A stretch of DNA of 40,693 nt from Clostridiales bacterium (GTDB lineage Bacteria > Bacillota > Clostridia > Lachnospirales > JAISYE01), in contig JAISYE010000067.1 of the NCBI GenBank assembly GCA_031297485.1, forward strand, positions 1 to 40,693, given 5' to 3'. The notes below the pieces were generated by a model. The model made no database searches. It saw only the letters and a program-made list of their open reading frames with translations, and was not told where the DNA came from. Below, piece by piece: positions 21,012 to 37,134 of the stretch. Positions within the stretch are counted from its first letter, which is position 1; each line of letters begins with the position of its first letter. Position numbers and translations under genes: made by a program.

Positions 21012-21032
21012 TATCCAATCCCTGCTCCGCCT

Positions 21033-22093: not shown

Positions 22094-22177
22094 AAAGAAC
22101 CCTGCGGACAAGCTAACGTTGGGTTGTCCTTTAGGCGCGAAGCGCCGTAATAGCTTCGCGAAAACTCCAAATTCCGG
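22094..22177 (+). mobile_element. 84-bp family C element, intergenic
   Basis: aaagaaccctgcggacaag...ggcgcgaagcgcc...aaattccgg. Confidence 0.7.
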
Positions 22178-22189
22178 TATGGTAAATTT

Positions 22190-23320
22190 TCAGACATTCG
22201 TATCCACCGCCTTTACTATTCTGTCTATAGCCTCACTAAGCCTCGCGCGGCTTGTCGCAAAGTTTACGCGGACGAACCCTTCGCCGCCGCCGAAATCCGC
22301 GCCGCCTGCCAGCGCGACCTTCGCGTTGTCCCTCAGGAATTTTACTGTGTCGCCAAGCCTATATTCCGTAAGGTCAACCCATTGCAGAAACGTCGCCTCG
22401 TTGTTGGTAAGCCGGCATTTCGGCAGGCGCGCGCGAAACTCGCGCCGCAAAAAATCCCGGTTCCCGCGCAGATGATTGAGCTGCTCCTTTTTCCACTCGT
22501 CGCAGCGTTCGCTGAACGCGCCCGCAATCGCGGCGGCGTTAAGCCCGCTGACACCGCCGCGTCCAAAGGCGCGTTTAACTGTGCCGCGCAGCGTCTCGTC
22601 CGGCACAACGGCTATCGCGCCGCGAATCCCGGGCATGTTGCAGACCTTGCCCGCCGCAATCAGCGTCACCGAATTCGGCTCAATGTCGAACCAGGGCGTG
22701 TGCTTGCCGTCAAAGACAAGCTCACAGTGTATTTCGTCCGATATTGTGACTAACCCGCGGCGGCGCGCAAAGTCCGCCAGAGCGGAGAGTTCGTCCCGGG
22801 TATAAACATACCCGATGGGGTTGTGGGGGTTGCACAGAAAAAACGTGCCCGCGCCCGCGGATTTAGCGGTCAATGCGTCAAAATCACAGCGATACGCCAG
22901 CGTACCGTTCTCCCTTGTCTCGCTCAGCCTGGCGCGGTGGGCGCGTCTGCCGGCCCGTTCCGGCGCCGTAAGCATCAGCGAGTAACCGGGTTCCGCGACC
23001 AGCACGCCGCCCTCCGCAATACACGCCAGAGTCTCGAAGGCAGGGACAATCCCCGGAATAGGTACAAGCCACTCCCGCGGCACTGTCAGCCCGAACTTGC
23101 GGCTGTACCAGTCCGACACGATGCCGAGCAGGCCGAAGTCGTTCCAACCATAGCCCAATGTCGGCATGGAGCCGGTAAGCTCATTAATCGCGTCCAGCAC
23201 AGGCGGCGCCGTAGGCCAATCCGCGTCGGCAATCCCCATGCCGATTGTCCCCTCCGGTATGGTGTCCCACTTTATTGACGCTGTCCCCCGCCGTTCGGCG
23301 AGCTTTTCAAAAAACGACAT
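22190..23320 (-). CDS. patB: PatB/MalY-family PLP-dependent C-S lyase (cystathionine beta-lyase-like)
   Basis: 'RRGTASIKWD', 'MGIADADW', 'LCNPHNPIG', 'SDEIH', 'AAGKVCN', 'RVNFAT'; ATG 23320 after AAGGAG. Confidence 0.88.
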   Translation of the reverse strand: MSFFEKLAERRGTASIKWDTIPEGTIGMGIADADWPTAPPVLDAINELTGSMPTLGYGWNDFGLLGIVSDWYSRKFGLTVPREWLVPIPGIVPAFETLACIAEGGVLVAEPGYSLMLTAPERAGRRAHRARLSETRENGTLAYRCDFDALTAKSAGAGTFFLCNPHNPIGYVYTRDELSALADFARRRGLVTISDEIHCELVFDGKHTPWFDIEPNSVTLIAAGKVCNMPGIRGAIAVVPDETLRGTVKRAFGRGGVSGLNAAAIAGAFSERCDEWKKEQLNHLRGNRDFLRREFRARLPKCRLTNNEATFLQWVDLTEYRLGDTVKFLRDNAKVALAGGADFGGGEGFVRVNFATSRARLSEAIDRIVKAVDTNV

Positions 23321-23346
23321 CCAAATCGCTCCTTCAGGGATGTGTG

Positions 23347-23409
23347 AATAACATATATGACATATATTTATTATATGCGCAGTGTAATACAAAGAGGAAA
23401 GTTTGTCAA
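23347..23409 (-). promoter_or_regulatory. Sigma-A promoter and downstream palindromic operator candidate of the patB operon
   Basis: TTGACA (23404-23409)-17 nt-TACACT (23381-23386); imperfect palindrome aataacatatatgacatatatttatt at 23347-23372. Confidence 0.6.
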
Positions 23410-23517
23410 GAGAAAAAAATCGGCAGATGTCAGGGAAAGAAGTTTAAGTCTATATCAGAAGCGCAAAATACAGCGCAAAAAATTTAAGGTCTGTGTCTAT
23501 TCAGAGGCGTAAGATAG

Positions 23518-23720
23518 TTGTCCGTCGGTTCTTTAATGAGCGCGCGCGAAGCGCAAGAAGGGGTCTGGGGATGAAATCCCCAGCGGGGTTTGGGGCCAAC
23601 GAACAAACCATCGTTAGACCCCTAACGGTGAACTGTCCGTTGGTTTTAAGGTTTTGACCTTTCCCAAGCCTTAAATTCGCGCCAATGGGGTCAACCCGCC
23701 CGTTTGCCACTAACGGTGAT
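23518..23720 (+). repeat. Family A repeat joined to a family C end
   Basis: Collinear with 1294-1420 and reverse-complementary to blocks in 15560-15733. Confidence 0.85.
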
Positions 23721-23800
23721 TACGAATATGCTCGCGCAGGTTTCGCCTATAGGCATAGCAGGGGAGGGTGAGGCTTGAAAAATGAGTTTGGAATTTTCGC
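23721..23800 (+). repeat. Degenerate copy of the glycoside hydrolase 3' end (35320-35398)
   Basis: Manual alignment gives 69/80 identical columns, including tttcgcctatagg and cttgaaaaatgag. Confidence 0.85.
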
Positions 23801-23905
23801 CTCAAAGAGCGCGGCGAAAACGGCCTAACGGTAATTTGCCCGTTGCCGCGCCCAACGGACAACCCTAACGGTGAACTGTCCGTCGGGTTTTTCGCCAGGT
23901 TCTTT
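23790..23905 (-). mobile_element. Family C element with inserted 21-nt modules
   Basis: Begins ggaattttcgc and ends ggttcttt, the reverse complements of the family C ends. Confidence 0.7.
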
Positions 23906-23945
23906 AGTGTGATAGTCACTGAGATTCTTTGCCGCGAACATAGGT

Positions 23946-24734
23946 TTACTTGTTTTTGTTAAGCATACTTGTCGGCGTACACCCGTAATATTTAGAAAAG
24001 GCCGCTTCAAAGTATGAGTATGTCGAATACCCCGTTTGCTCGGCCACAGCCGTCACACTGACGGCTGTGCCGTTTAAAAGCCGTTTGGCAAGTTCCATTC
24101 TTTCCATAATGATAAAACGTTTAATGGAGACGCCTTTTTCCCGCTTAAAAACTCGGCTGATATAATCTTCGTTTAGAAAATACCTGTTGGCAATCTGTGT
24201 TACGCTTAAATCTTCGTCTGAAAGGTGTGACAGTATATAGGCGGTTACCTCGCCGGTAAGGTCTTTCGGCGTTAAAGGTTTTTGCTTGTCTTGCGTCTTT
24301 TCCCGTTTTTCATTCAGCCATTGCGCGCCGTATTTTGCGATTTGTCTGTTTTCACGAGCCGCGAGTATTTTTTGCGCGGACTTTTGTACGGTTTCGGCTA
24401 TATTTTCATACGGAGCAGGGGTTAGTATATAGTCCTCGCAACCTAATCGGATAGCTTCTTGCGCATACTCAAATTTGGCGTGGCAAGTTAAAAAGACGAT
24501 AGCAGCGTCCGCGCCGCTCGCCCGTACTTTTCTTATAAATTCAATACCGTTTTCGCCGGGCATTTCTATGTCGCACAAAATAACATCCACAGTTTGCGAC
24601 GACATAATATTCAGAGCCTCGGCAGTGTTGTGCGCTTCGTATACATCGCCCGCAATGCCGTAATTTTGCCAGTTTACGGCGGCGAGTAAGGCTTTTATTG
24701 CTATTATTTCATCGTCAACTATTAACAGGTTCAT
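23946..24734 (-). CDS. YesN-type response regulator (REC plus AraC HTH)
   Basis: 'LLIVDDE..CDIEMPGENG', C-terminal 'YISRVFK..VAEQTGY..YF..F..YG.TP'. Confidence 0.92.
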   Translation of the reverse strand: MNLLIVDDEIIAIKALLAAVNWQNYGIAGDVYEAHNTAEALNIMSSQTVDVILCDIEMPGENGIEFIRKVRASGADAAIVFLTCHAKFEYAQEAIRLGCEDYILTPAPYENIAETVQKSAQKILAARENRQIAKYGAQWLNEKREKTQDKQKPLTPKDLTGEVTAYILSHLSDEDLSVTQIANRYFLNEDYISRVFKREKGVSIKRFIIMERMELAKRLLNGTAVSVTAVAEQTGYSTYSYFEAAFSKYYGCTPTSMLNKNK

Positions 24735-26403
24735 AATCTTCTTCCTTTTTCGGGATAATGATACTTACTATACTGCCTTTCCGTAACTCGGACTCGGCTT
24801 CCACTTTGCCGTCTCCGCCGTAAAAATACCGAATCCGCTTGTAGGAATTATATATGCCTATGCGGAAAGATTTACCTTCACCCGTATCAAAAGTACCGTT
24901 GTTTATTTGCGTTACGGTTTCCGGAGGCATACCCGCGCCATCGTCTTGTACCCGTATATGCGCTTTGCCGTTAAATATACTTGTTTTAATATTGATATTG
25001 ATAAAGTCCTTACCCGCCATAGCGTGTTCAAAAATATTTTCCACAAAATTATGAACCAGCAAAGGCGGCACAAGATAAGCAAGCGTTTTTTCCTCAATAT
25101 CAAGCACGGCCTTAAACTTACAGGGATAACGTATCGAGGATATTTCTAAATATTGGCGTATAAGCTCAATTTCCTTTTCAAGAGGTTCAAGGTCGGCGTC
25201 ATTACGGAAAATATAGCGGAAATAGTCCGAAAGGTACAACGCCAGCTTTTGAACGTCCGCTGTTTCGCCTATTTGCGCAAGCCCATACACCAGCTTAAAC
25301 ATATTAAGCAAAAAATGCGGACGTATCTGTAACTGTAAATTGCGCAGCATAATTTTTTGGTGCGCCATTTCTTTTTCATAGTTTTCAATTTTTAGTTGGT
25401 CTATGCTGTCCACCATTTCGTTAAACGCCCTGTTTATTATAATAAATTCTTTCGCGTATTTGTGGTGTGAACCTATGCGGTATTCTCTGTCGCCGGATTT
25501 TAGCCTTAAAATAGCTTTGTGTATTTTATTGAGAGGACGAAGCAAAGCTCGGTTTAACACAAACAACAGAACAGGTATAAGTGCCAAGTATAAAAACGCC
25601 AGCACTATTCCGAACCATTGGATAAGCGGTAAAGTCTTGATAATTTCTATTTCGGTAGTTTCAATTGAAAGGCTTAAATCAATGCGGCCGGAACTGCTTG
25701 TAACGCGGATAACGCCCTTTTCGGCGGCGGCAACCGGCGAAGAGCTTACAGTTACGCTTATGCCGTTATATGCGGCGGCTTCTTTTAACGCGTTTACCGA
25801 CTGGTCTATTGAAATAACCGCCCCATAGTAAAAACCTTTGAACTCGTTTATGTAAATAAGCCATTTTTGTTCGTTAATATCGACCAAACTCCAGCGTTTA
25901 GCCAAGTAAACGCCTTCGTTTTTAATATAACCGGCTACGGCGCTGCGATATTCTTGGCTGGGCGAGTGCCAAGTCCCCGAAGATGTTGAGCGTTGTAATA
26001 AAACAAGTAAAAAATCGCCCGACTGCTTGCCATAAGTAAAATAACCGTCCGCATTGCCGATTGTTTCTATGTTAGTTCGCAACCGCGCCGCCATTTGTGT
26101 TTTCGCGAGTGTATATGCGTCGTCGCCACCTTGATGTATTAGCCTTATAAACGCCGCGTCCCGTTCGGACAAGTCATATAAATAATAGTTTACGCCGGAT
26201 AATTGATTATCCAAATCCTGTATATAAAAATTGGCCATATTTTCAAGCGAAACACGCCCTTGTTCTATAACCACAGCAATGGATTGAACCATGGAAACAA
26301 TTACAAGCGCGTTCAGCGGTAAAATGGTTAACAAAATTATAATTACAATTTTATTTGTTATGCCGCCGACCAAGCTTTGAATCATATTTTTCAACAGAAC
26401 CAC
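24715..26403 (-). CDS. YesM-type sensor histidine kinase
   Basis: Two TM helices, HAMP, 'LQLQIRPHFLLN', 'FVENIFEHA', 'DDGAGM', 'IGIYN'. Confidence 0.92.
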   Translation of the reverse strand: MVLLKNMIQSLVGGITNKIVIIILLTILPLNALVIVSMVQSIAVVIEQGRVSLENMANFYIQDLDNQLSGVNYYLYDLSERDAAFIRLIHQGGDDAYTLAKTQMAARLRTNIETIGNADGYFTYGKQSGDFLLVLLQRSTSSGTWHSPSQEYRSAVAGYIKNEGVYLAKRWSLVDINEQKWLIYINEFKGFYYGAVISIDQSVNALKEAAAYNGISVTVSSSPVAAAEKGVIRVTSSSGRIDLSLSIETTEIEIIKTLPLIQWFGIVLAFLYLALIPVLLFVLNRALLRPLNKIHKAILRLKSGDREYRIGSHHKYAKEFIIINRAFNEMVDSIDQLKIENYEKEMAHQKIMLRNLQLQIRPHFLLNMFKLVYGLAQIGETADVQKLALYLSDYFRYIFRNDADLEPLEKEIELIRQYLEISSIRYPCKFKAVLDIEEKTLAYLVPPLLVHNFVENIFEHAMAGKDFININIKTSIFNGKAHIRVQDDGAGMPPETVTQINNGTFDTGEGKSFRIGIYNSYKRIRYFYGGDGKVEAESELRKGSIVSIIIPKKEEDYEPVNS

Positions 26404-26573
26404 CTCTTAATTTATACTAAGGAATTTCATTCGCTCCGCACCTGTATACCGCGCGCCCGCGCAATTGAATCACCGGCAAGTGTCATCAGGATACGGTATA
26501 TTCTATATTGTTTATCTTCATTGTCAAGGCTGTTTAACCAAAAAGTCCACGCCAAACGCACAGTAATTAAGAA

Positions 26574-26602
26574 AAGTCGGAAAGTCTAAAATTCAAGTCG
26601 GA
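26574..26602 (+). promoter_or_regulatory. Direct repeat AAGTCGGA, 21 bp apart; candidate binding site for the AraC-type response regulator
   Basis: Copies at 26574-26581 and 26595-26602, immediately upstream of TTGCAT (26606-26611). Confidence 0.55.
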
Positions 26603-26685
26603 TTTTTGCATATACCCGAGAATAAATTGTAGTTATATTGTTTTTGGAGATGTTGAAATTAAAAAATTTTTTAGGAGGGGTATGT

Positions 26686-28257
26686 GTGAAAAGATTTTTA
26701 GCGATCCTGCTTGTAGCGGCAACGCTTGCTTCTTTTGCGGCTTGCAGTCAGCAAAACGGTAAGGAGGCGGAATCGCCTGCGAAGTCCGCGTCTGCCGACA
26801 TGGAAACATCACAGGCTGAAACGCCGCAAGAAGAGCTGTATGAAGTGGTAATGGAATACCCGACGCTTGGTCAAACGCCGCGTGATCTTAAACTTGTGGA
26901 AGACAAGGTGAACGAGCGGACTGAGAAAGAAATAGGCGTGCACGTTACATTGTTCCCTGTTTCAGCTATGGAACTCAACAGCCAAACCAACCTTATGATT
27001 TCGACGGGTGAAAAGCTTGACCTTGCCTGTATTTTGTTTGAGGGCGGTATAGGCGGTTATGTTAATAAGGGCGCGTTTTTGGAACTTGACGGACTTGTGG
27101 CCGATTACGGGCAAGACATAGTCCGTGTTGAGGGCATCGCGATGGCAGGCGGTTATTTTAACAATAAGCTGTACGCCATTGTAAACGAATGTTATATGGG
27201 ACAGCAGAATGGCTTTATGGCAAGAAAAACTATAATTGACAAATACGGCATTGAGTACGACCCTAACCACGTATATAATCACGAGGAATTAGGGGCAATT
27301 TTCGCTGAAATAAAAGCGGGCGAGGCCAGTCAGTTTTACTGCATAGCCGGAAACAGCGGAGATGTTTTTACGTCAATGAATGGTATTGATACGTTGGGCG
27401 GTTCAATCGGTTCCGGCGTGCTTATGAATTACGGCAGAGGCTCGACAGCTGTTGTAAACGCGTTTGAAACACCCGAATTTGCCAATGCCTGCGATTATGC
27501 CCGCAAATGGTACAATGCGGGATATTATTCCCCTGACTGCAACACGACGACAGACTCTGTAATAGACCTTTTGCAAACAGGCAATTATTTAGGAGCTTTT
27601 AACAACTGCGTCCCCGGAGTCGTAAGAGACTGGCAAGGTCTGGCCAGAGTAATAGACGGCGACGACGGCGGTTTCCTTCCGTTCTATACTCAGGCTCCGC
27701 ATACGACTATGCAAGTGTTCCAAAATTCTATGTGGGCTGTGCCCATTACTTGCGACAATCCCGAAAAAACTATGCAATGGCTCAACCTGCTTTACGCGGA
27801 CGAGGAAATGACGAATTTGCTGTATTTAGGCATTCAAGGCGTACATTGGAACTTTGCCGAGGGAAGCAAAAGAGTCGTGGAAAGGCCCGCGGATTATGAC
27901 CCGGCGGACCCGCCGTATATGGCGGTATTGGATGTTTGGGGCGACAAGAGCGTGCAGTATGTGCAAGCTCCCGCAGACGAAAGTTATTATACGGACTTGA
28001 AAAACTTTAACGATTCTATAACGGATGAGCATAAATCGGGCGTATTGGGTTACTGCTTTAATACCGAGGTATGCAAAGCGCAATACGTTGCCGTTGCCGA
28101 CGTTGCGGCGCAGTATCAGCCAAGCCTGCTGTACGGTGTTGTTGACCCCGCCAGCGTTTTGCCGGAATTTTTAAGCGCGCTAAAAGCGGCGGGCATAGAC
28201 GAATTAATTAAGGCTAACCAAGAACAGTTAAACGAATGGCTGGCGGAGCAGAAATGA
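26686..28257 (+). CDS. Carbohydrate ABC substrate-binding lipoprotein (DUF3502-type C-terminus)
   Basis: GTG start after AGGAGG; lipobox 'FAAC'; 'NPEKTMQWLNLLY..LYLGIQGVHW', 'LKAAGID..Q.QLNEW'. Confidence 0.9.
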   Translation: MKRFLAILLVAATLASFAACSQQNGKEAESPAKSASADMETSQAETPQEELYEVVMEYPTLGQTPRDLKLVEDKVNERTEKEIGVHVTLFPVSAMELNSQTNLMISTGEKLDLACILFEGGIGGYVNKGAFLELDGLVADYGQDIVRVEGIAMAGGYFNNKLYAIVNECYMGQQNGFMARKTIIDKYGIEYDPNHVYNHEELGAIFAEIKAGEASQFYCIAGNSGDVFTSMNGIDTLGGSIGSGVLMNYGRGSTAVVNAFETPEFANACDYARKWYNAGYYSPDCNTTTDSVIDLLQTGNYLGAFNNCVPGVVRDWQGLARVIDGDDGGFLPFYTQAPHTTMQVFQNSMWAVPITCDNPEKTMQWLNLLYADEEMTNLLYLGIQGVHWNFAEGSKRVVERPADYDPADPPYMAVLDVWGDKSVQYVQAPADESYYTDLKNFNDSITDEHKSGVLGYCFNTEVCKAQYVAVADVAAQYQPSLLYGVVDPASVLPEFLSALKAAGIDELIKANQEQLNEWLAEQK

Positions 28258-28258
28258 T

Positions 28259-29101
28259 ATGAACACACAATTTGCGGCAAAAAAAGAATATGCGGACGCG
28301 CTTCTTGAAATAGCGCGTAATACCGAACCGTTATTGCCCGCAAAGCCGTTAAACTTTATTAAGGTGATGGAAGAGAATAGGGGTAGCATTGATATTTTGC
28401 AATACCCCTATTCTTTCCCCAAAGACGGCTTAGATAGGAAAAACCCGTTAGCGGTGGTTTTAGGCGACAGCGTAACAGCGGGGCATTTTGAGTTTGCCGG
28501 CGACCCCGGAAAGATTTTCGCGCGCTTACAGGCAGGGCAGCTCGGCAAAAACGATGTGATTTCCATTATGGACGCAAGGCAAGGGTATGTTGACCAGTTT
28601 AGGGCCATGCTTATCGGCAAATACGGGCAAACCTGCGTAAGCGTAATAAACTCGGGGCTTGCCGGAGACGTTATTTTAAGTATGGAAAAACGTTTGGACA
28701 GAGACGTAATACGTTATCAACCCGATTTGGTTATTGTAAACGCGTCGTTAAACTGGCCGAAGCAATGCCGCGGCACTGAGACATATAAAGAATCGCTGCT
28801 GCGAACCGTGCAAAGGCTGAAAACGGAAACTGACGCGGACATTATATTGATGACACCCAATATGGTTATGCCTTCCCCGCCGGATATGGATAACCCTTTG
28901 TCCGCACTTGCGGACAGAGTAAATGTAATTAGGGAAGCGGCGGAAAAAGAGAATCTGTGTTTGGCGGATACATACCGTGTGTGGGAGCGGTACGCGCAAA
29001 AAGGGTTCCCTGTTTCCGAACTGCTTGCGAACGGTGTAAACCATCCTTGTGCCGAAGGACATACCGCCTGCGCAATTACATTAATGAAATTGTTTTTATG
29101 A
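28259..29101 (+). CDS. SGNH/GDSL hydrolase family esterase
   Basis: 'VLGDSVT', 'NSGLAG', 'ASLN', 'NGVNHP'. Confidence 0.85.
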   Translation: MNTQFAAKKEYADALLEIARNTEPLLPAKPLNFIKVMEENRGSIDILQYPYSFPKDGLDRKNPLAVVLGDSVTAGHFEFAGDPGKIFARLQAGQLGKNDVISIMDARQGYVDQFRAMLIGKYGQTCVSVINSGLAGDVILSMEKRLDRDVIRYQPDLVIVNASLNWPKQCRGTETYKESLLRTVQRLKTETDADIILMTPNMVMPSPPDMDNPLSALADRVNVIREAAEKENLCLADTYRVWERYAQKGFPVSELLANGVNHPCAEGHTACAITLMKLFL

Positions 29102-29113
29102 GGAGGCCGCGAT

Positions 29114-30046
29114 ATGGAAATAACAGGGGCACGTAAAAAAGCGGTTAAGTGGAAACGGTTTATGCCGTTTTATATAATGGCTCTCCCCGGGGTTGTTTAC
29201 TTATTTTGTAACAACTATTTGCCGATGGCGGGCATTGTTATAGCGTTTAAGCACTTGGATTTCCGTAAAGGAATATTCGGAAGCGAATGGGCGGGGCTTG
29301 ATAACTTCAAGTTTCTTTTCGCGTCTAAAAACGCGTTTGAAATAACAAGAAACACTTTGTTGTATAACGGGCTGTTTCTTGTGCTTGGCACTGTCTTGGC
29401 CATAACGCTCGCGGTATTGATGAATGAAGTCCAAGGCAAAGCCGCGTCAAGGTTATACCAGTGTCTAATATTATTGCCGTTTTTAATAAGTTGGGTTATA
29501 GCAAGTTATTTGGTTAACGCCTTTATCGCGGCGGATACAGGACTTATAAACAACGGCATCCTTAAACCGCTCGGGCAAAAGCCTGTTTCTTGGTACAACT
29601 CGAAACAATACTGGCCTGCAATACTTACCATATGTAATACTTGGAAATCAATCGGCTATGGTATGATTATATACCTAAGCAGTATTATAAGTATAAGCCA
29701 GGATTACTACGAGGCCGCCATAATAGACGGCGCGTCAAAATTCAAGCAAATACGTCTTATTACGCTGCCGCTTATTAAGCCTACCGTCATTACCATGACC
29801 ATCCTTACAGTAGGCAGAATTTTCTATTCTGACTTCGGCTTGTTTTATCAGGTGCCAAAAAACAGCGGCACATTGTACAGTGTTACGCGTACAATTGATG
29901 TGTATGTTTATAACGCTTTGATGAATAACAGTGACTATGGTATGTCGAGCGCGGCAAGTATTTATCAGTCGCTGGTCGGGTTTGTTCTTATTATATCAAC
30001 CAACGCGTTATTGCGTAAACTGAGCAAGGATAACGCTCTGTTTTAG
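29114..30046 (+). CDS. Carbohydrate ABC permease (LplB type)
   Basis: 'YLPMAG..IAFK', 'WAGLDNFKFLF', EAA loop 'YYEAAIIDGA'. Confidence 0.92.
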   Translation: MEITGARKKAVKWKRFMPFYIMALPGVVYLFCNNYLPMAGIVIAFKHLDFRKGIFGSEWAGLDNFKFLFASKNAFEITRNTLLYNGLFLVLGTVLAITLAVLMNEVQGKAASRLYQCLILLPFLISWVIASYLVNAFIAADTGLINNGILKPLGQKPVSWYNSKQYWPAILTICNTWKSIGYGMIIYLSSIISISQDYYEAAIIDGASKFKQIRLITLPLIKPTVITMTILTVGRIFYSDFGLFYQVPKNSGTLYSVTRTIDVYVYNALMNNSDYGMSSAASIYQSLVGFVLIISTNALLRKLSKDNALF

Positions 30047-30058
30047 GGGAGGGGCTAT

Positions 30059-30961
30059 ATGCCGGTTAAAAGTTTTGAAAATGTGACTTGGAAAGCAGCT
30101 GCCCACATAATTTTGTGCGCGTTCGCTCTGGCAGCCGTTATGCCGTTTGTGTTACTGATAGCCGCTTCTTTTACCGATAACAATACGGCGCTTGCGCAAG
30201 GGTTCTCGTTTTTACCGAAGAAATTGAGTTTAGATGCCTATGTCTATATAGTCCGCGAATGGAGGACTATCGGCCGCGCGTACTTTATGACGATACTCGT
30301 CACCGTATCCGGTACGGCCATAAGCCTTATCGTTACTTGTATGTTCGCTTACGCGCTTTCGCAGGGCAATCTGCCGGGAAGAAACCTCTTAACATTTTTG
30401 TGCGTTTTCCCGATGTTATTTAATGGTGGTCTGGTTGCGTCATACTATGTCTGGTCGTCGGTGTTTCAGATAAAAAACACCTTGTGGGCACTAATAATAC
30501 CAAACCTGTTAATGAATACTTTTAACGTAATTTTAATAAAAAACTATTTTCAAAACAGTATCAGCCCAAGTATTTTAGAAGCGGCGCGTATTGACGGCAT
30601 AAGCGAGTTTGGGTTGTTTGTACGTATAGTTATGCCGCTTTCGGTTCCGTTAGTGGCTACTATAGGGCTTATGGGCGCGCTGGCGTATTGGAACGACTGG
30701 ACAAATGGCTTATATTACCTTACGGAACGAGACGGTGGTCAATTTTACACCATACAACTTGTGTTAAACAGCATAAACGAGAATATTAACTTTTTGGCCA
30801 ACAATTCTGAGCTTATGTCGCGGGCTAACATACAAAACCTGCCGTCGACAACAATGCGTATGGCTATCGCCGTGATAGGCATATTGCCAATTTTGGCCGC
30901 TTATCCGTTCTTTCAGCAATATTTTGTAAAAGGCATTACTTTGGGCGGAGTAAAAGAATAA
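30059..30961 (+). CDS. Carbohydrate ABC permease (LplC type)
   Basis: 'MLFNGGLV', 'LEAARIDG', 'YWNDW', 'YPFFQQYFVKGITLGGVKE'. Confidence 0.92.
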   Translation: MPVKSFENVTWKAAAHIILCAFALAAVMPFVLLIAASFTDNNTALAQGFSFLPKKLSLDAYVYIVREWRTIGRAYFMTILVTVSGTAISLIVTCMFAYALSQGNLPGRNLLTFLCVFPMLFNGGLVASYYVWSSVFQIKNTLWALIIPNLLMNTFNVILIKNYFQNSISPSILEAARIDGISEFGLFVRIVMPLSVPLVATIGLMGALAYWNDWTNGLYYLTERDGGQFYTIQLVLNSINENINFLANNSELMSRANIQNLPSTTMRMAIAVIGILPILAAYPFFQQYFVKGITLGGVKE

Positions 30962-30979
30962 ATAAATGGGAGGCTGTGT

Positions 30980-32551
30980 ATGAGGACTTTTGTTGAAAAG
31001 CTGACAAATGCCACACTTACAGGGTATATTCACGGCAAAAGCGGTGAAATGCCCAATGTTGACATTCGCCCTGCCGTTCTTGTTTTCCCGGGCGGCGGCT
31101 ATATGTTTTGTTCCGACCGGGAAGGGGAACCTGTCGCGCTCGCGTATCTTGCGGAGGGATACAACACGTTTGTTCTGCGTTATTCGGTCGGCAAAAACGA
31201 ACCTTGCCAAAAGGCATTTGAGGACGCTAACGAGGCTATCGCCTATTTGCACAATAACGAGGCTGAATTGAATATTGATAAAGATAAAATAGCCGTAATT
31301 GGTTTCTCGGCGGGAGGGCACCTTGCCGCTTGGCTGAGCGTTTCAGGCGCTGTAAGGCCAAACGCCGCTGTACTTGGATATCCGTGCGTTTTGAAAGAAT
31401 GCGGCGATACGCTCGGCAAAGAATTCCCCGAAATTATCGGGAATGTGGACAAAAACACGCCGCCCGCGTTTATCTTCTCGACGCGCAACGATGACGTAGT
31501 GCCTATCGAAAACTCTTTGAAGTATATTAACGCTCTCGCTCAGGCGGGTGTTGGCTTTGAAACGCATATTTACGCGAAGGGAACACACGGGTTGTCGCTT
31601 GCCAAACCTCTTACATCATCTGGCGGAGCCGTTATGGTTAATGAAGATGCGGCGGGTTGGTTTACCCTTAGCGTCAAGTGGTTAAAAGGCATTTGGGGCG
31701 ATTTTCCGGCAGACGGCACACAACCGCCCAATATGAATTGGTTCGTTTCAACCCCATTAAACAAGTATGTTGTGCATATTTGCGACAAAACAGGCGTGGC
31801 GGCTTTCCTTGTAAAGGGCAAAGAACGCGCTTTACTTATAGATACCTGTATGGGTTTAGGGGATATAAAAGCCGAAGTTGAAAACTTAACAAAGCTGCCA
31901 TATGAGGTTGCCTTGACGCACGGACACCTTGACCACGTAGGCGGCGCGGGTTGTTTCAGCAAAGTCTGCGTTAACGGAAACGACGTATTGCTCGCAAAAG
32001 AACACTCCTCATTTGAGATGCGTTACGAGTCGCTTAAGCGCGGAATGCCGCAAGGCGTTGAGCTTCCGGAAAATGTTGTAACGCCGGCATTTAACGGCGA
32101 GTTTTTGCCGCTTAACGACGGTCAAGTGTTCGATTTAGGCGGGGTTATGGTTGAGGCTATCGCTTTACGGGGGCATACGAAAGGGAGTATGTGCTTTTTA
32201 ATACGCGAACAGCGCGCTGTCCTTTACGGTGACGCCTGCAATGTAAACACGCTTATAATGGACGGCAACGCGGAAAATATTTCTGCATACCGCGATAATT
32301 TAATTAAGTTTAAGGAGCGCGACGGGGATTACGACACGGTTTACTATTCGCACGGGCCGGCAATAGGGCCGCGCGGATGCCTCGACGACAACATAGAACT
32401 TTGCGTTAAAATACTTGAAGGCACTGATGACGCCGTACAGACGGAAATTTTCGGGCAAATAATGTTCCGAGCGGCAGCCGCGGATGATAATTACAGGCGT
32501 TTGGACGGCAAGCATGGAAACATTGTTTATAATAAAGCTAATGCTTTTTGA
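30980..32551 (+). CDS. Fusion of alpha/beta-hydrolase (esterase) and metallo-beta-lactamase-fold hydrolase
   Basis: N-half 'PGGGY', 'GFSAGG', 'DDVVP', 'HGLSL'; C-half 'IDT', 'THGHLDH', 'GHTKGS', 'GDA', 'SHG'. Confidence 0.85.
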   Translation: MRTFVEKLTNATLTGYIHGKSGEMPNVDIRPAVLVFPGGGYMFCSDREGEPVALAYLAEGYNTFVLRYSVGKNEPCQKAFEDANEAIAYLHNNEAELNIDKDKIAVIGFSAGGHLAAWLSVSGAVRPNAAVLGYPCVLKECGDTLGKEFPEIIGNVDKNTPPAFIFSTRNDDVVPIENSLKYINALAQAGVGFETHIYAKGTHGLSLAKPLTSSGGAVMVNEDAAGWFTLSVKWLKGIWGDFPADGTQPPNMNWFVSTPLNKYVVHICDKTGVAAFLVKGKERALLIDTCMGLGDIKAEVENLTKLPYEVALTHGHLDHVGGAGCFSKVCVNGNDVLLAKEHSSFEMRYESLKRGMPQGVELPENVVTPAFNGEFLPLNDGQVFDLGGVMVEAIALRGHTKGSMCFLIREQRAVLYGDACNVNTLIMDGNAENISAYRDNLIKFKERDGDYDTVYYSHGPAIGPRGCLDDNIELCVKILEGTDDAVQTEIFGQIMFRAAAADDNYRRLDGKHGNIVYNKANAF

Positions 32552-32563
32552 CGAAGGTGTGAT

Positions 32564-35383
32564 ATGTACAACAGATTGCTCGACGTATTAGAAAATAAAA
32601 GTAAAAACTATATTCTGCCGTTTTTTTGGCAACACGGCGAAGACGAAAAGATTTTGCGCGAATATATGCAAGTTATTCACAACGCCAATATAGGCGCGGT
32701 GTGCGTCGAGAGCCGCCCTCATCCGGATTTTTGCGGTGAAAAATGGTGGACGGATATGGACGCCATTTTGGACGAGGCCGCACGGCTGAATATGAAAGTG
32801 TGGATACTTGACGATTCGCACTTTCCGACAGGCTATGCGAACGGGTCAATGGAAAACGTCCCGAAAGAGCTGCGTCACCAATATTTGGACTATAATACGC
32901 TTAACGTATGCGGTCCCAAGCCCGCCGTGGAAATTGACGTAAACGCATTAATCCACCCAAGACCAGCGCCGCCTTGGCTTCCGCCCCCGCCGCCTAAGCG
33001 CGTGTTTAACGACGACAAACTCTTTAAGGTTTTGGCGGCTGAATATGTTGGGGATAAACTTGGCGAAAGCATTGATTTAACAGAGTTTGCGGCGGACGGA
33101 CGGCTTGTGTGGAATGTCCCCAAAGGTTATTGGCGCATATTTATCGTTTATCTTACGCGCGACGCGAACGGGCGTAATGATTACATTAACTTTTTGGACG
33201 AAAGATCTTGCCGTGTACTTATAGACGCGGTGTACGAAACGCATTACGAGCGTTATAAAAACCTTTTCGGCAGCGTTATAGCCGGATTTTTCAGCGACGA
33301 ACCACCTATAGGCAACAGCCCGGGATATACGCGCAACAACCGTATAGGAGACTTAATGCCTTTGCCCTGGTCTGCCGCCATGCCTGACAAATTTTCGGAA
33401 GAATATGGCGCGGGCTGGAAGAAGCAGGTTATTTACTTGTGGGAACAAGGTGTTGACGAAGAGGAAACAGCGCGTATAAGAAGCGCGTATATGCACAGCG
33501 TAAGTAAACTTGTTGAAAATTGCTTTTCCGGGCAAATAGGGCGCTGGTGTGAGGAACACGGCGTTCTGTATATCGGGCATATGCTTGAAGACTGCGATGC
33601 GAACGCCGACTTGGGGCCGTCTATGGGGCATTTTTTCCGCGGGCTTAAAGGCCAGCATATGGCGGGAATAGACAACATAGGCGGGCAGGTGGTTATTGGC
33701 GGTCAAAACTCGCCGCGTTTTCCCGCGCAGGGCGGTTTTGATGTTGCGGGATTTTACCATTATCTGTTGGGGCGTTTAGGCGCGTCAATGGCGGCTATTG
33801 ACGCTAATAAGCAAGGGCGCTGTTTGTGTGAAAACTTTGGCGCGTATGGATGGCAAACCGGTGTTTCAACCATGAAGTACCTAACCGACCATTTTCTTGT
33901 ACGCGGCGTAAATAGGTATGTTCCTCATGCCTTTTCGCCGAAAAAGTTCCCCGACCCAGACTGCCCCCCGCATTTTTACGCGCGCGGCGAAAACCCTCAA
34001 TATAAAGCGTTCGCCGCCCTTATGGCTTACACGAACCGGGTTTGCCACTTAATCGACGGCGGTAAGCCTATAACGCCTGCCGCTGTGCTTTACCACGGCG
34101 AAAGCCGTTGGGCGGGCGCTTATCAAAGCAATATAGAAGTGTGCAAAATTTTGACGAGAAATCAAATAGGCTTCACGGTCATACCTGCCGATGTATTTGG
34201 CCGGACTTCCAGTGAATATGGCACCGCTTTATCAGCCGATGGCAAGACTTTAACTATAAACGGCGTGGCTTTTTCGGCGTTGATTATTTCGGAATGTGAT
34301 TACATGCCATACCAAGCGGCTTTGTTTGCCGAACGCGCTTTATCTTGCGGGTTCCCTCTTTTCTTCACAGGGAAATTACCCAAAGGTGTCTGCGACGCGG
34401 AAAAAGCCGAAAGCAAGCGTTTAATGGCTTTACTCGGGGCCCGCGCCGTCCCCGTCCCTGCGGTTGATATACCCAACGCGCTTGCGCCATATGTTAAGCG
34501 CGACGTAATTATAAATGGCGGCAGTTTTCAGAACTTAACGGCATACCGCTATAAAAATACTGAAAATGGCGCGCCGGAGGTTCCGGACTCGCTAGTATAT
34601 TTGTTATTGAACGAAGACCCGTGCGAAACATTCGGGGGCGGGACTTCCGGTGCGGCGCAAATCGCGCTTGAGGGCGCGGCGGAAATGGAAGTTTACAAAT
34701 ACGACGCGTGGAATAATCAGCTTTTTGAAGTGCCAAGCAAAACCGTAAGTTCCGGCTGCGGCAGATGGATTGACATTACGCTTGAGCCGCTTGAAATGGC
34801 CATTTTCGTTTGTCAGGCTGAAAAGATTCCCTCAAGGCGGCAAAGTAAAGTCCGCGAAAGCCTTGAACTTGACGGTTTTACGGTTTCTTGCGCGGCGGCC
34901 GGCAAGTATCCGTCATTCGACAGAGAACCCGGCGAACAAGGGCGGCGTGAAGCGCCGTTTTCGCGAAGCGCCGTTTTCGCGAAGCGAAAATTCCGAAGAG
35001 TTGGCGTGCCCGACTTTATAAATGGCATGGGACTGATACTTAAAGATTTTACCGGTTTTATACGTTACGAAACAACGTTTGAAGCGCAACCCGGTTTTAT
35101 TGTGGATGATAGATATAAAAACGATGTATTTTTATGCCTTGAACAAGTATACGACACCGCCGAAATCTATGTGAACGGTAAAAGTGTTGGGAGCATTGTA
35201 TGTAAGCCGTACAAAATTAACATAGGCGGCTACTTGAATAATGGAACCAATTCTATTATAATAGAGGTAGCCACGACGCTTGAACGTAAAGTGATTGCCA
35301 TGGGCCTTGACGTTGCGTGTATGAATATACCCGCGCCGGTTTCGCCTATAGGTATAGTAGGGAGGGTGAGACTTGAAAAATGA
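32564..35383 (+). CDS. Large glycoside hydrolase (GH106-like catalytic region with C-terminal GH2-type sugar-binding domain)
   Basis: 'YILPFFWQHGE', 'ESRPHPDF', 'WILDDSHFPTG', 'GFFSDEP', 'ENFGAYGW', 'VPHAF', 'AEIYVNG..PY'. Confidence 0.8.
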   Translation: MYNRLLDVLENKSKNYILPFFWQHGEDEKILREYMQVIHNANIGAVCVESRPHPDFCGEKWWTDMDAILDEAARLNMKVWILDDSHFPTGYANGSMENVPKELRHQYLDYNTLNVCGPKPAVEIDVNALIHPRPAPPWLPPPPPKRVFNDDKLFKVLAAEYVGDKLGESIDLTEFAADGRLVWNVPKGYWRIFIVYLTRDANGRNDYINFLDERSCRVLIDAVYETHYERYKNLFGSVIAGFFSDEPPIGNSPGYTRNNRIGDLMPLPWSAAMPDKFSEEYGAGWKKQVIYLWEQGVDEEETARIRSAYMHSVSKLVENCFSGQIGRWCEEHGVLYIGHMLEDCDANADLGPSMGHFFRGLKGQHMAGIDNIGGQVVIGGQNSPRFPAQGGFDVAGFYHYLLGRLGASMAAIDANKQGRCLCENFGAYGWQTGVSTMKYLTDHFLVRGVNRYVPHAFSPKKFPDPDCPPHFYARGENPQYKAFAALMAYTNRVCHLIDGGKPITPAAVLYHGESRWAGAYQSNIEVCKILTRNQIGFTVIPADVFGRTSSEYGTALSADGKTLTINGVAFSALIISECDYMPYQAALFAERALSCGFPLFFTGKLPKGVCDAEKAESKRLMALLGARAVPVPAVDIPNALAPYVKRDVIINGGSFQNLTAYRYKNTENGAPEVPDSLVYLLLNEDPCETFGGGTSGAAQIALEGAAEMEVYKYDAWNNQLFEVPSKTVSSGCGRWIDITLEPLEMAIFVCQAEKIPSRRQSKVRESLELDGFTVSCAAAGKYPSFDREPGEQGRREAPFSRSAVFAKRKFRRVGVPDFINGMGLILKDFTGFIRYETTFEAQPGFIVDDRYKNDVFLCLEQVYDTAEIYVNGKSVGSIVCKPYKINIGGYLNNGTNSIIIEVATTLERKVIAMGLDVACMNIPAPVSPIGIVGRVRLEK
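34922..34996 (+). mobile_element. 75-bp family C element inserted in frame in the glycoside hydrolase
   Basis: 59-bp unit (2 mismatches vs 11571-11629) plus a 16-bp tandem duplication ccgttttcgcgaagcg; codon-aligned; encodes REPGEQGRREAPFSRSAVFAKRKFR. Confidence 0.9.
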
Positions 35384-35385
35384 GC

Positions 35386-35526
35386 CCGGAATTTTCGCTT
35401 TGCGAAAACGCGGCCCGCAGAGGTTGGTCCGTCTTCGCCGCAACGGAGAACCTAACGGTGAATTGTCCGTTGCGGTGAATTGTCCGTTGCGGTGAATTGT
35501 CCGTTGGTTTTGTCCGTCGGGTTCTT
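35386..35526 (-). mobile_element. Family C element containing three tandem 17-mers
   Basis: Ends ccggaattttcgc / cgggttctt; cggtgaattgtccgttg three times at 35456-35506. Confidence 0.75.
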
Positions 35527-35572
35527 GGGCGTTCGGGGTAAAGAAATAATACAACAGATGGGAAAATGATAT

Positions 35573-36979
35573 ATGCGCGTTGGTAAATTGTTCGGAACAA
35601 AAGATATGACCGTCGGTACGCCTTGGCAAAAACTGCTTCTGTTTGCCGCGCCGCTGTTGATTGGGAATGTTATTCAGCAAATATACAGCACGGTGGACGC
35701 CGTCGTCGTCGGGCGTTTTGTCGGCGACGAGGCGTTGGCGGCAGTTGGCGGCAGTTTCCCTATTATTAACCTTGTTTTTATTCTGTTTATCAGCATAGCG
35801 ACAGGCGCGGGAATTATGGTGGCGCAATATTTCGGGGCAAAAGACAGGGAAACGCTTTCGCAAACAATAGGTACGACACTTACCCTTATGGCTGTGGCAA
35901 GCGTTATTATTATGGCCGCCGGCTCAATAATTACGCGCCCGCTCTTGACGCTTATTAAAACACCCGTCAACGTAATTGACGGCTGTACGGAATATTTGAC
36001 AATAATATTCATCGGTATTTCCGGCATTGCCTACTACAACGGAGTTTCAGGCATTTTGCGCGGAATGGGCGACAGCGTTATGCCGCTCGTATTTTTATCT
36101 ATAACTTGTTTCCTTAATATTGTGTTGGACATTTGGTTTGTTGGCGGTTTGGGTTGGGGCATAGCGGGCGCGGCTTGGGCTACGGTTATTTCCCAGTGGG
36201 TTTCCTCCGTGCTTTGCATTATAAGGCTTGCGCGGATGAAAGGCACGATAGACCTGAACCTTAAACGGTTGTTCCCTAAAAAGAATTTGTGCGCGCAACT
36301 GCTGAAACTCGGCGCGCCATCCGCGGTAACGCAAGTTATATTCGCTTTCGCCAATATTTTGGTGCAGTCGCTGACGAACAGTTTCGGATCATATATAATG
36401 ACCTGCGGCACAATCGTAATGCGCGTGGACGGGTTCGCCATGATGCCTAACTTTACGTTCGGTATGGCTATGTCGACCTTTGTCGGGCAAAATATAGGGG
36501 CAAATAAAATTGACCGCGTTAAAGCGGGCGTCCGCTCGGGGCTTTTAATGGCGGTCACTTTTTCAACCGTAATGGTGATCTTGATAATAATTTTTGGTAA
36601 ATATCTTATGGGGATTTTTACGACTACGCAAGACGTAATCGATTTAAGCTATAAAATGCTGTGCATACTTGCGGTAGGTTATATAGCGATGTCGGTGACG
36701 CAGACGCTGGGCGGTTCGATGAGCGGCGCGGGCGACACCACGTCGCCTATGTTTGTTTCCATATTCAGCACGATAATAATCCGAATGCCGCTTGCTTACC
36801 TGCTGGCGTACCTTACACGCTCGCGGGAAAATCCGAAGGGCATACCAGAAATAGCGCTGTATGTTTCACTTTTAACCGCTTGGATTCTCGGCGCTTGTTT
36901 GGCGGCTGTATTATTCAAAAGAGGACGCTGGCGCACAAAAAGCGTTGTCAAATCGGCTGACGGACAGCAGGTTTTGTAA
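35573..36979 (+). CDS. MATE family efflux transporter
   Basis: 'KDMTVG.PW', 'QQIYSTVDAVVVGRFVG..ALAAVG', 'RGMGDS..PL', 'NIVLD', 'GQNIGA', 'GAGDT'. Confidence 0.93.
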   Translation: MRVGKLFGTKDMTVGTPWQKLLLFAAPLLIGNVIQQIYSTVDAVVVGRFVGDEALAAVGGSFPIINLVFILFISIATGAGIMVAQYFGAKDRETLSQTIGTTLTLMAVASVIIMAAGSIITRPLLTLIKTPVNVIDGCTEYLTIIFIGISGIAYYNGVSGILRGMGDSVMPLVFLSITCFLNIVLDIWFVGGLGWGIAGAAWATVISQWVSSVLCIIRLARMKGTIDLNLKRLFPKKNLCAQLLKLGAPSAVTQVIFAFANILVQSLTNSFGSYIMTCGTIVMRVDGFAMMPNFTFGMAMSTFVGQNIGANKIDRVKAGVRSGLLMAVTFSTVMVILIIIFGKYLMGIFTTTQDVIDLSYKMLCILAVGYIAMSVTQTLGGSMSGAGDTTSPMFVSIFSTIIIRMPLAYLLAYLTRSRENPKGIPEIALYVSLLTAWILGACLAAVLFKRGRWRTKSVVKSADGQQVL

Positions 36980-36994
36980 ATTGCCCCGATTTAA

Positions 36995-37058
36995 GGCGTG
37001 TTTGAAAATTCCTTAAAGCGCGAAATTTAGAATAGGAATTAAGTTTTCAAACACGTCC
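36995..37058. mobile_element. 64-bp family E MITE-like element, uninterrupted copy
   Basis: ggcgtgtttgaaaa...ttttcaaacacgtcc terminal inverted repeats; second copy at 15749-15877. Confidence 0.8.
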
Positions 37059-37083
37059 CAGGCCCCAAAGCCGTGGTATTCAT

Positions 37084-37126
37084 AAAAGGCCCGCAGCTGC
37101 CGCAAAACGGCAGCTGCGGGCCTTTT
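37084..37126. terminator. Bidirectional Rho-independent terminator
   Basis: aaaaggcccgcagctgccg-caaaa-cggcagctgcgggcctttt, a perfect 19-bp stem. Confidence 0.85.
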
Positions 37127-37134
37127 ACCGTGTA

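What the first reader, a model, noticed from the sequence alone, without database searches (positions are those of the whole stretch)
23721..35398. Degenerate copy of the hydrolase gene's 3' end, plus the adjacent element end, brackets the whole 11.6-kb sugar cluster
Seen: 23721-23800 matches 35320-35398 at 69/80 columns in direct orientation. It covers the last ~21 codons, the stop codon and the start of a minus-strand family C element. The left copy has a 1-nt insertion and lies between family A and C modules. Inference, three options: (i) the element carried flanking DNA when it moved (read-through transduction, as rolling-circle elements do); (ii) remnant of a tandem duplication of the cluster, later deleted; (iii) the cluster integrated as a circle using repeats as homology. 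Each would mean the repeats can move or amplify host genes.
Basis: partly seen in the sequence, partly recalled or inferred. Interest (0 to 1): 0.72.

Follow-up and report, generated by a model that had tools for sequence, protein, structure and literature searches.

The report
Dead gene stub beside sugar cluster
A decayed 63-base copy of the end of a sugar-cutting enzyme gene sits at the far side of its own gene cluster, and it is most likely a harmless scar of an old duplication and deletion at repeat sequences, not proof that the repeats carry genes around.

Summary
Window 23721-23800 matches 35320-35398 at 69 of 80 columns. BLAST gives 67/77 identities, E 3e-12 against the 3.53-Mb assembly, and the coding part exists only twice there.

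The right copy is the native end of a 939-aa GH106-like hydrolase. Its last 20 codons align with a 43%-identical paralog and 10 metagenome homologs. The left copy is a dead stub with a +1 frameshift and 7 substitutions (5 replacement, 2 silent). It has lost a Met and a Pro that homologs keep.

On its left the stub abuts a hairpin-repeat module broken in mid-hairpin. That looks like an illegitimate junction, not a clean insertion. On its right lies a complete family C repeat, as after the real gene.

The bracketed eight-gene cluster looks foreign. Its GC3 is 0.43-0.51, against 0.60-0.71 in the left flank.

My best reading is a scar of a duplication of the cluster end, later cut back by deletion. 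Repeat-primed copying or deletion followed by reintegration remain possible. Element-borne transduction is disfavoured: this is 1 case among 86 elements, and no HUH transposase was found.

No close relative and no usable reads were available. Interest is modest.

The parts
22190..23392 (-). Left flank gene: PatB-family C-S lyase / class I-II aminotransferase, GC3 0.69 (typical for this genome)
   Evidence: Pfam PF00155 E 2e-30; TIGR04350 250 bits, below its cut-off of 340; GC3
23480..23720 (+). Composite hairpin-repeat block (MITE-like). Its outer terminal motif GTGTCTATTCAGAGG lies at 23493-23507. Its last module is cut in mid-hairpin at ...CTAACGGTGATT|, where the stub begins
   Evidence: Self-BLAST depth 25-418. 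The two nearest copies, on C146 and C163, continue ...GGTGATT-TGACCTCTGAAT(A/C)GACAC, and that tail is absent here. The terminal motif has 150 genome hits, 35 of them in inverted pairs
23721..23786 (+). Relic of the hydrolase 3' end: codons 920-939, the stop and G. It carries a +1 frameshift (extra G) and 7 substitutions (5 replacement, 2 silent)
   Evidence: No ORF above 80 aa crosses the intergenic region
23787..23906 (+). Family C repeat element, left copy. Long first hairpin (type 1), preceded by TTT. Carries the rare CCTAACGGTGAAnTGTCCG module
   Evidence: folds as hairpins, z -3.25
23946..26403 (-). AraC-type response regulator (23946-24734) and histidine kinase (24715-26403), GC3 0.47 and 0.43
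   Evidence: Pfam; GC3
26638..32551 (+). Sugar ABC uptake and esterases: solute-binding protein with DUF3502, GDSL esterase, two permeases, and an esterase/metallo-beta-lactamase-fold fusion. GC3 0.49-0.51
   Evidence: Pfam; NCBIfam; GC3. The same gene order occurs in loci L014, L015, L016, L019 and L024
32564..35383 (+). 939-aa glycoside hydrolase, distantly GH106-like, with a C-terminal jelly-roll domain. Its native 3' end (35320-35384) is the right repeat copy
   Evidence: The C-terminus aligns with a paralog and 10 homologs
34922..34997 (-). Family C element inside the hydrolase reading frame. It is read through as residues 787-812
   Evidence: It is an insertion relative to 9 of 11 aligned homologs; the other 2 carry shorter, unrelated sequence there
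35385..35530 (+). Family C repeat element, right copy. Short first hairpin (type 2), preceded by CCC. The rare module is present in 3 tandem partial copies
   Evidence: fold z -2.86
35573..36979 (+). Right flank gene: MATE efflux family, GC3 0.55 (intermediate)
   Evidence: Pfam PF01554 E 2e-60; GC3

Best explanation
The left copy is a non-functional relic, a 63-base stub of a second copy of the hydrolase gene's end together with the family C hairpin repeat that follows that gene. The most likely history has four steps. First, an 11.6-kb sugar-utilisation cluster arrived by horizontal transfer. Second, a family C repeat came to lie 4 bases after the hydrolase stop codon. Third, the cluster, or at least its end, was duplicated in direct orientation. 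The unit boundary falls at the outer end of the C element, as in a tandem duplication formed at dispersed repeats. Fourth, an illegitimate deletion removed almost all of the upstream copy. One of its end points lay inside a hairpin module of another repeat and the other lay 20 codons before the hydrolase stop. The stub has since decayed without selection and does nothing today. Shown: the match, its two-copy status, the native origin of the right copy, the decay of the left copy, the broken module at its left edge, and the atypical composition of the cluster. Inferred: the order of events, and that the duplication covered the whole cluster.
For: The match is real and two-copy.

The right copy is native. 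The last 20 codons align to the end of a 43%-identical paralog (C182) and of 10 full-length metagenome homologs.

The left copy decayed on its own lineage. It has a +1 frameshift and 5 replacement against 2 silent changes. At the Met column (11 of 12 aligned sequences) and the Pro column (12 of 12), the right copy keeps the residue while the left reads Thr and Gln.

The left edge is a break. The module ...CCCGCCCGTTTGCC(A/C)CTAACGGTGATT runs on into TGACCTCTGAAT(A/C)GACAC in both nearest copies. Here it runs straight into hydrolase sequence, and the missing tail is not found downstream of the stub.

The similarity ends at the outer end of the C element, within about 5 b.

Both C elements carry a module seen in only 6 of 86 family members, which argues that they were copied together.

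The cluster looks acquired. The GC3 of its 8 genes is 0.43-0.51, at or below the genome's 5th percentile (0.513; 1694 ORFs). The left flank has 0.60-0.71. Paralogous permeases are mostly at 0.55-0.72, and the paralogous hydrolase is at 0.67. The same gene order recurs at 45-71% amino-acid identity in 5 metagenome loci.
Against: No second full copy, no relative with the ancestral arrangement and no read evidence exist, so the route is inferred from one junction.

The two C elements differ right next to the well-kept gene part. The 3 bases before GGAATTTTCGC are TTT against CCC. The first hairpin is long against short. The second module is different. After a joint duplication this requires later remodelling or conversion.

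The terminal motif of the left repeat block is unpaired in 80 of 150 genome hits. An incomplete block is therefore common, and the truncation argument rests on only 2 closely matching copies.

A duplication followed by a deletion that spares just 63 b is a two-step story. One-step repeat-primed copying explains the same structure.

The link to patB runs through a repeat with 200-400 copies and could be an assembly choice.
Confidence: 0.45

Rival explanations
1. Repeat-primed ectopic copying in one step. A break or stalled fork at a family C element downstream of the regulator gene was repaired from the C element behind the hydrolase. Synthesis ran 63 b past the element into the gene end. The new strand was then joined illegitimately inside the neighbouring hairpin repeat. 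Only about 190 b were ever duplicated.
For: The duplicated segment is bounded on one side by the outer end of a C element, which offers homology, and on the other by a break inside a hairpin module, which is illegitimate. The two elements share a rare module (6 of 86). Hairpin-rich DNA makes up 6.55% of the genome at self-match depth 20 or more.
Against: The element halves nearest the copied gene end are the least alike, whereas a fresh conversion tract should make them the most alike. Only this one case was found in the genome-wide screen.
Confidence: 0.2
2. Deletion followed by reintegration. An ancestor lost the cluster through a deletion between the hairpin repeat and hydrolase codon 920, leaving patB-stub-C-MATE. 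A circular or linear copy of the cluster from a related cell then recombined through the stub and C-element homology, restoring the cluster to the right of the stub.
For: The repeat|hydrolase junction at 23720/23721 has the polarity of a deletion joint across the cluster. The cluster is compositionally foreign and is a conserved syntenic unit elsewhere. Family C start motifs occur in 4 other assemblies (9 stretches), so a donor could also carry such repeats.
Against: No integrase or recombinase domain was found in any of the 8 cluster genes. Flanking homology would normally restore the locus without leaving the stub. The replacement-biased decay (5:2) shows no sign of divergence accumulated under selection in a donor lineage, though the numbers are small.
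Confidence: 0.15
3. Element-borne transduction. The family C element moved from behind the hydrolase to the left site and took 63 b of flanking gene with it, as one-ended or read-through rolling-circle elements do.
For: The fragment is contiguous with the same end of a C element in the same orientation at both sites. A filled/empty site pair (C29 against C75) shows that C elements do insert. The constant boundary is the element's outer end and the ragged boundary lies in the flanking gene.
Against: This is 1 case among 86 elements. The elements are of different subtype and differ in the 3 bases before the start motif. The target repeat lacks its right end both at the junction and downstream, which a simple insertion would not cause. 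No Y1_Tnp was found, with the control positive in 6 of 14 genomes. No Y2_Tnp or IS91 models hit, but their controls were silent, so those results are uninformative.
Confidence: 0.1
4. Assembly artefact. The contig joins sequence from two strains, or mis-joins at a repeat, so the two copies do not lie 11.6 kb apart on one chromosome.
For: The assembly is a 299-contig draft. Several contig ends carry 90-98% identical copies of gene ends plus repeats found elsewhere, which suggests strain mixture. High-copy repeats lie just left of the stub.
Against: The copies differ at 11 of 80 columns, so they cannot be one collapsed locus. The stub, its mosaic C element and the regulator gene are joined through low-copy sequence of depth 1-9. 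Only the link to patB crosses a high-copy repeat.
Confidence: 0.05

Closest known systems
Tandem chromosomal duplications whose join points lie in dispersed short repeats (REP-mediated duplications in Salmonella and E. coli; recalled from Shyamala, Schneider and Ames 1990 and the amplification literature, not read here). Of PMC11111574 I saw the search listing and passages only; it reports tandem duplication activating horizontally transferred genes.
   Same: The direct-repeat unit ends at a short hairpin repeat. The duplicated cargo is a horizontally acquired, nutrient-related gene set.
   Different: No second copy survives here. Only a 63-b stub and one element remain, and the other boundary is an illegitimate break. 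The repeats are a different, modular family in a Clostridiales-type genome.
Gene 3'-end duplications at the borders of integrative islands (elements that integrate into the 3' end of a gene and carry a replacement end; recalled knowledge).
   Same: A partial copy of a gene's last codons sits at one border and the intact gene end at the other, in direct orientation, around a compositionally foreign segment.
   Different: The intact gene lies inside the bracketed segment, not outside it. No integrase is present. The copies are 14% diverged and one is frameshifted.
One-ended or read-through transposition of IS91/ISCR and Helitron-type rolling-circle elements (recalled knowledge).
   Same: A constant element end is combined with a variable stretch of adjacent host DNA on the other side.
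   Different: The element is a 36-222-b non-coding hairpin repeat. No HUH transposase was found. The screen found no other capture.
Modular intergenic hairpin repeats: REP/BIME of enterobacteria, and BOX, RUP and Correia elements (recalled knowledge).
   Same: Short hairpin units in mosaic combinations, at high copy number, mostly between genes and sometimes in tandem.
   Different: The sequences are unrelated and there is no Rfam match. No RAYT-type Y1 transposase was found. One copy sits in frame inside a gene.

Membership tests
Integrative island with att repeats at a gene 3' end | Integrase or recombinase gene in the island | tested here: not met
   Pfam scan of all 8 cluster genes found no integrase, recombinase or transposase domain
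Integrative island with att repeats at a gene 3' end | Direct repeats at both borders that include the target gene's 3' end | tested here: met
   69/80 columns in direct orientation
Integrative island with att repeats at a gene 3' end | Target gene belongs to the host and lies outside the island | tested here: not met
   The hydrolase body (32564-35319) lies between the repeats and shares the cluster's low GC3 of 0.51
IS91/ISCR/Helitron-like rolling-circle transduction | HUH (Y2) transposase available in the genome | tested here: inconclusive
   PF04986, PF14319 and NF033538 gave no hit in G000, but their control genomes were also silent and the assembly is 90.7% complete
IS91/ISCR/Helitron-like rolling-circle transduction | Recurrent capture of different flanking DNA on one constant side of the element | tested here: not met
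   Self-BLAST screen of 43 low-copy segments next to repeats. Only this pair is a clear intra-contig gene-end/intergenic case, among 86 C elements
REP/BIME-like repeats mobilised by a RAYT | Short imperfect palindromes at high copy number, mostly intergenic, in mosaic arrays | tested here: met
   86 elements with both ends, median length 69 b. The basic unit folds into two hairpins. Tandem 59-b units lie at 11571-11689
REP/BIME-like repeats mobilised by a RAYT | Y1 (IS200/IS605-like) transposase gene in the genome | tested here: not met
   PF01797 gave no hit in G000; the control was positive in 6 of 14 genomes. The assembly is 90.7% complete, so absence is not proven
MITE (for the repeat block left of the stub) | Terminal inverted repeats bounding a short non-coding element | tested here: inconclusive
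   GTGTCTATTCAGAGG has 150 hits: 70 lie in 35 inverted pairs 132-415 b apart and 80 are unpaired. The copy at 23493 is unpaired. Target-site duplications were not examined
Tandem duplication joined at dispersed repeats | Unit boundary coincides with a repeat element | tested here: met
   Left/right similarity stops at the outer end of the C element, GGTTCTT, within about 5 b
Tandem duplication joined at dispersed repeats | Two full copies of the unit, or reads showing copy-number variation | not testable with these tools
   Only one run held any of the sequence (share 0.06), as contigs of 151-274 b with none bridging a junction
GH106-type glycoside hydrolase (the gene whose end is copied) | Match to the family model above its curated cut-off | tested here: not met
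   PF17132 scored 25.4 bits against a cut-off of 29. NF045579, the jelly-roll domain, scored 40.9 against 50. The PDB hits 6q2f and 5mqm cover the C-terminal domain only

The most novel reading that the evidence does not exclude
The family C hairpin repeats act as portable homology that primes copying of the host DNA next to them. Repeats could thereby scatter gene ends and set up direct repeats around a foreign 11.6-kb sugar cluster, turning it into a unit that can be amplified, excised as a circle and passed between termite-gut Clostridiales that share the same repeat family.
Probability: 0.12. Interest if true: 0.6.

Novelty: new member of a known kind. Interest (0 to 1): 0.3.

Why it matters
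If the reading holds, the stub is a dated footprint of how a horizontally acquired polysaccharide-utilisation cluster was rearranged after arrival. Both rearrangement end points lie in short hairpin repeats, which cover 6.55% of this genome at self-match depth 20 or more. That would make the repeats the local substrate for duplication and deletion, much as REP elements are in enterobacteria, in a lineage known only from metagenome assemblies. It gives no evidence that the repeats carry genes around. The practical value is as a marker: the same stub in related genomes would show whether the cluster was duplicated, lost or regained.

Tried and rejected
Reads. The look-up of sequencing runs returned one run (X1, share 0.06). 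Laying it on 19000-38500 gave only short contigs of 151-274 b, partly near-identical, with none bridging 23721 or 35320, no joint skipping the cluster and no circle junction. Misassembly, excision and copy number therefore stay untested.

Synteny. All 40 relatives offered are only 'same order'. PatB-like hits were 31-35% identical and never on the same contig as a MATE hit in the genomes that had both (G016, G037). Whether patB adjoins the MATE gene in relatives cannot be answered.

Metagenome scan with the hydrolase. It returned 21 loci. The best full-length identity was 53% and the best partial 65-75%, so there is no close relative.

Genome-collection scan with the C-element start. It returned 9 stretches in 4 assemblies. 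Those genomes share only repeat modules with the window and a weak MATE match. They have no cluster and no close hydrolase; the best hit was 26% identical.

The idea that the 80-mer is a repeat module is rejected. Rfam gave no family at gathering score in the whole window. No coding potential crosses the stub; ORFs there are at most 80 aa and lie over repeats.

A second candidate relic (C56/C94, 84% over 117 b) turned out to be a low-copy repeat segment that includes a hairpin module, not a gene end.

A degenerate pattern for type 1 elements found nothing in the window because I wrote it too strictly.

Earlier findings of this scan were not open.

I saw PMC11111574 only as a search listing and passages. 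It is a method paper and bears only loosely on this case. The second literature search gave nothing on these repeats. I made no search for prior descriptions of this repeat family beyond.


Full report
**Observation**

Window 23721-23800 and 35320-35398 align over 80 columns with 69 identities and one gap, an extra G in the left copy. BLASTN-short against the whole 3,528,685-b, 299-contig assembly finds each copy only as itself and its partner: 67/77 identities, E 3.3e-12.

An all-against-all self-BLAST gives depth 1 across 23721-23786 and 35320-35386. Depth rises only where GGAATTTTCGC begins. The local alignment score is 49, and no score among 1000 shuffles exceeded 15. With gaps, the pair extends through the following repeat element to 23883 / 35470 (164 columns, 74%, E 1e-18).

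**What the two copies are**

The right copy is the end of ORF 32564-35383, a 939-aa protein. That protein gives weak GH106 and galactose-binding-domain matches, and its C-terminal jelly-roll domain is also seen in PDB entries 6q2f and 5mqm.

Its last 20 codons are native. They align to the very end of a 43%-identical paralog on contig C182 and of 10 full-length homologs from metagenome loci. All share a common ...IEVATTLERK...M..xxPLSPTG(I/L)xGxVxL ending.

The left copy, read in the same frame, gives T-N-M-L-A-Q-V-S-P-I-G-I-A-G. An extra G then shifts the frame. There are 7 substitutions, 5 replacement and 2 silent (alignment). At the Met column (11 of 12 aligned sequences) and the Pro column (12 of 12), the right copy keeps the residue and the left copy has lost it.

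So the changes fell on the left copy without selection. It is a dead stub. No ORF longer than 80 aa crosses the 553-b intergenic region, and no Rfam family matches anywhere in the window.

**The edges of the stub**

To the right, 4 bases after the stop in both copies, begins a family C element. This family starts (Y)TC-GGAATTTTCGC, has one or two short GC hairpins, and ends ...CTTGTTCGTCGGGTTCTTT. I found 86 copies with both ends in the genome, with a median length of 69 b. Left/right similarity stops at the outer end of that element.

The two elements are not twins:
- The three bases before the start motif are TTT (4 of 86 elements) and CCC (3 of 86). The usual forms are TTC (36) and CTC (22).
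- The first hairpin is long on the left and short on the right.
- The second module differs.

Yet both carry, in their 3' half, a CCTAACGGTGAAnTGTCCG module present in only 6 of the 86 elements. That argues they were copied together and remodelled later.

To the left, the stub abuts a composite hairpin-repeat block (23480-23720, self-match depth 25-418). The last module of that block reads ...CCCGCCCGTTTGCCACTAACGGTGATT and then runs straight into hydrolase sequence. In the two closest copies (C146, C163) the same module continues TGACCTCTGAAT(A/C)GACAC, which is the block's terminal inverted repeat. That tail is absent at the junction and downstream of the stub.

The junction therefore cuts a hairpin in half. 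It looks like an illegitimate deletion or joining point, not an insertion of a mobile unit.

One caveat applies. The terminal motif is unpaired in 80 of its 150 genome hits, so incomplete blocks are common, and the truncation argument rests on two close copies.

**The bracketed segment**

Between the copies lie eight genes:
- an AraC-type response regulator and a histidine kinase, both on the minus strand;
- a DUF3502 solute-binding protein;
- a GDSL esterase;
- two ABC permeases;
- an esterase/metallo-beta-lactamase-fold fusion;
- the hydrolase.

Their GC3 is 0.43-0.51, at or below the genome's 5th percentile (0.513; 1694 ORFs of 300 aa or more). The twelve genes to the left have 0.60-0.71, the MATE gene to the right has 0.55, and the next gene has 0.67.

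This is not a property of sugar clusters in this genome. About fifty paralogous permeases lie mostly at 0.55-0.72, and the paralogous hydrolase is at 0.67.

The order kinase-regulator-binding protein-permeases-esterase-hydrolase recurs, wholly or in part, in five metagenome loci at 45-71% amino-acid identity. The cluster thus looks like a horizontally acquired unit. Its left compositional border coincides with the stub.

**Is it a recurrent process?**

I screened the self-BLAST for low-copy segments (40 b or more at depth 2 or less in both copies, HSP 45-400 b) that touch high-copy repeats in both copies. This gave 43 candidates.

This pair is the only clear case within contigs of a gene 3' end matched to an intergenic copy. 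The others fall into four groups:
- contig-end overlaps or near-identical variants (C36/C146, C268/C277, C17/C142, C191/C200, at 90-98%), where the assembly prevents a verdict;
- paralogous genes;
- CRISPR leaders;
- low-copy repeat segments.

One informative pair (C29 against C75) shows a family C element present in one of two paralogous ORFs and absent from the other, so the family does insert.

No Y1 transposase was found, with the control positive in 6 of 14 genomes. No Y2 or IS91 models hit, but their controls were silent. The assembly is 90.7% complete.

**Explanation**

All viable histories share two features. One is homology, or a boundary, at the C element. The other is an illegitimate junction inside another hairpin repeat.

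I rank them as follows, with probabilities:
- **0.45** A direct duplication of the cluster end, most simply a tandem duplication whose unit ends at the C element, followed by a deletion that removed nearly all of the upstream copy.
- **0.2** One-step repeat-primed copying from the right C element into the gene end.
- **0.15** Deletion of the cluster followed by reintegration through the stub and C-element homology.
- **0.1** Transduction by the element.
- **0.05** Assembly artefact.

The remaining 0.05 is left for histories not considered here.

Whichever route applies, the stub is non-functional now; I put about 0.85 on that. The copies share no exact run longer than 15 b (alignment), so efficient homologous excision or amplification today is unlikely. 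That last step is inference from what is generally known about minimal homology lengths.

**What could not be done**

No genome closer than order level is held. The PatB/MATE adjacency test was therefore empty.

The metagenome scan gave no close relative. Four other assemblies share the C-element start (9 stretches), but they share only repeat modules and not the cluster.

The single sequencing run with any of the sequence held only 151-274-b contigs that bridge nothing.

**Comparison and verdict**

The closest known things are:
- tandem duplications joined at dispersed short repeats (recalled literature; PMC11111574 seen as listing and passages only);
- gene-end duplications at island borders, which this case fails because there is no integrase and the gene lies inside the segment;
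- rolling-circle transduction, which it fails on recurrence, and for which no enzyme was found.

This is a new example of a known kind of rearrangement scar, set in an unusually repeat-rich genome. Interest is modest (0.3). The repeats themselves, including one read through in frame inside the hydrolase, are the more unusual feature.

Noticed in passing
window 34922-34997: A family C repeat element lies inside the hydrolase reading frame, in the opposite orientation to the one after the stop. It is read through as residues 787-812 (REPGEQGRREAPFSRSAVFAKRKFRR). It is an insertion relative to 9 of 11 aligned homologs; the other 2 carry shorter, unrelated sequence at that linker.
   Followed up: partly
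whole assembly G000: The genome is very rich in short modular hairpin repeats. 6.55% of bases have self-BLAST depth 20 or more and 4.92% have depth 50 or more. Some modules reach 300-400 copies.
   Followed up: partly
G000 C29:19508-19586 versus C75:3675-3761: This is a filled and empty site pair for a family C element inside two paralogous ORFs. It gives the element's limits as (C)TCGGAATTTTCGC...GGGTTCTT, with no obvious target duplication.
   Followed up: partly
window 11571-11689: Two 59-b family C units, 100% identical over the 59 b aligned, lie head to tail. Similar tandem runs occur on C60, C205 and C211.
   Followed up: no
G000 contig ends: C17:7127-7221/C142:29104-29197, C268:16473-16545/C277:1-73, C191:1-263/C200:10914-11176, C36:1-72/C146:6592-6663: Gene 3' ends followed by repeats recur at contig ends at 90-98% identity to an internal locus. 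These could be strain variants, assembly forks or further relics; the draft assembly cannot tell.
   Followed up: partly
loci L034-L042: The exact 23-b start of the short-hairpin family C element occurs in 9 stretches of 4 other assemblies, 5 of them in one assembly. The repeat family is therefore shared beyond this genome. Those genomes share only repeat modules with the window.
   Followed up: partly
window 23946-35383: The whole eight-gene sugar cluster has GC3 0.43-0.51, against a genome median of 0.63. Its regulator pair is inverted relative to the same cluster in five metagenome loci.
   Followed up: yes
G000 C8:4632-4760 and C27:8810-8855: A 37-38-b repeat (GTTGCGCAACCCGCTTTCC..GAAAGGGGTTTGAAAC) with spacers, followed by similar leader-like sequence on both contigs, looks like two CRISPR arrays.
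   Followed up: no
window 37401-40691: A large open-ended ORF (1097 aa or more) with beta-helix repeats and Ig-like domains carries internal DNA repeats with a period of about 87-114 b.
   Followed up: no
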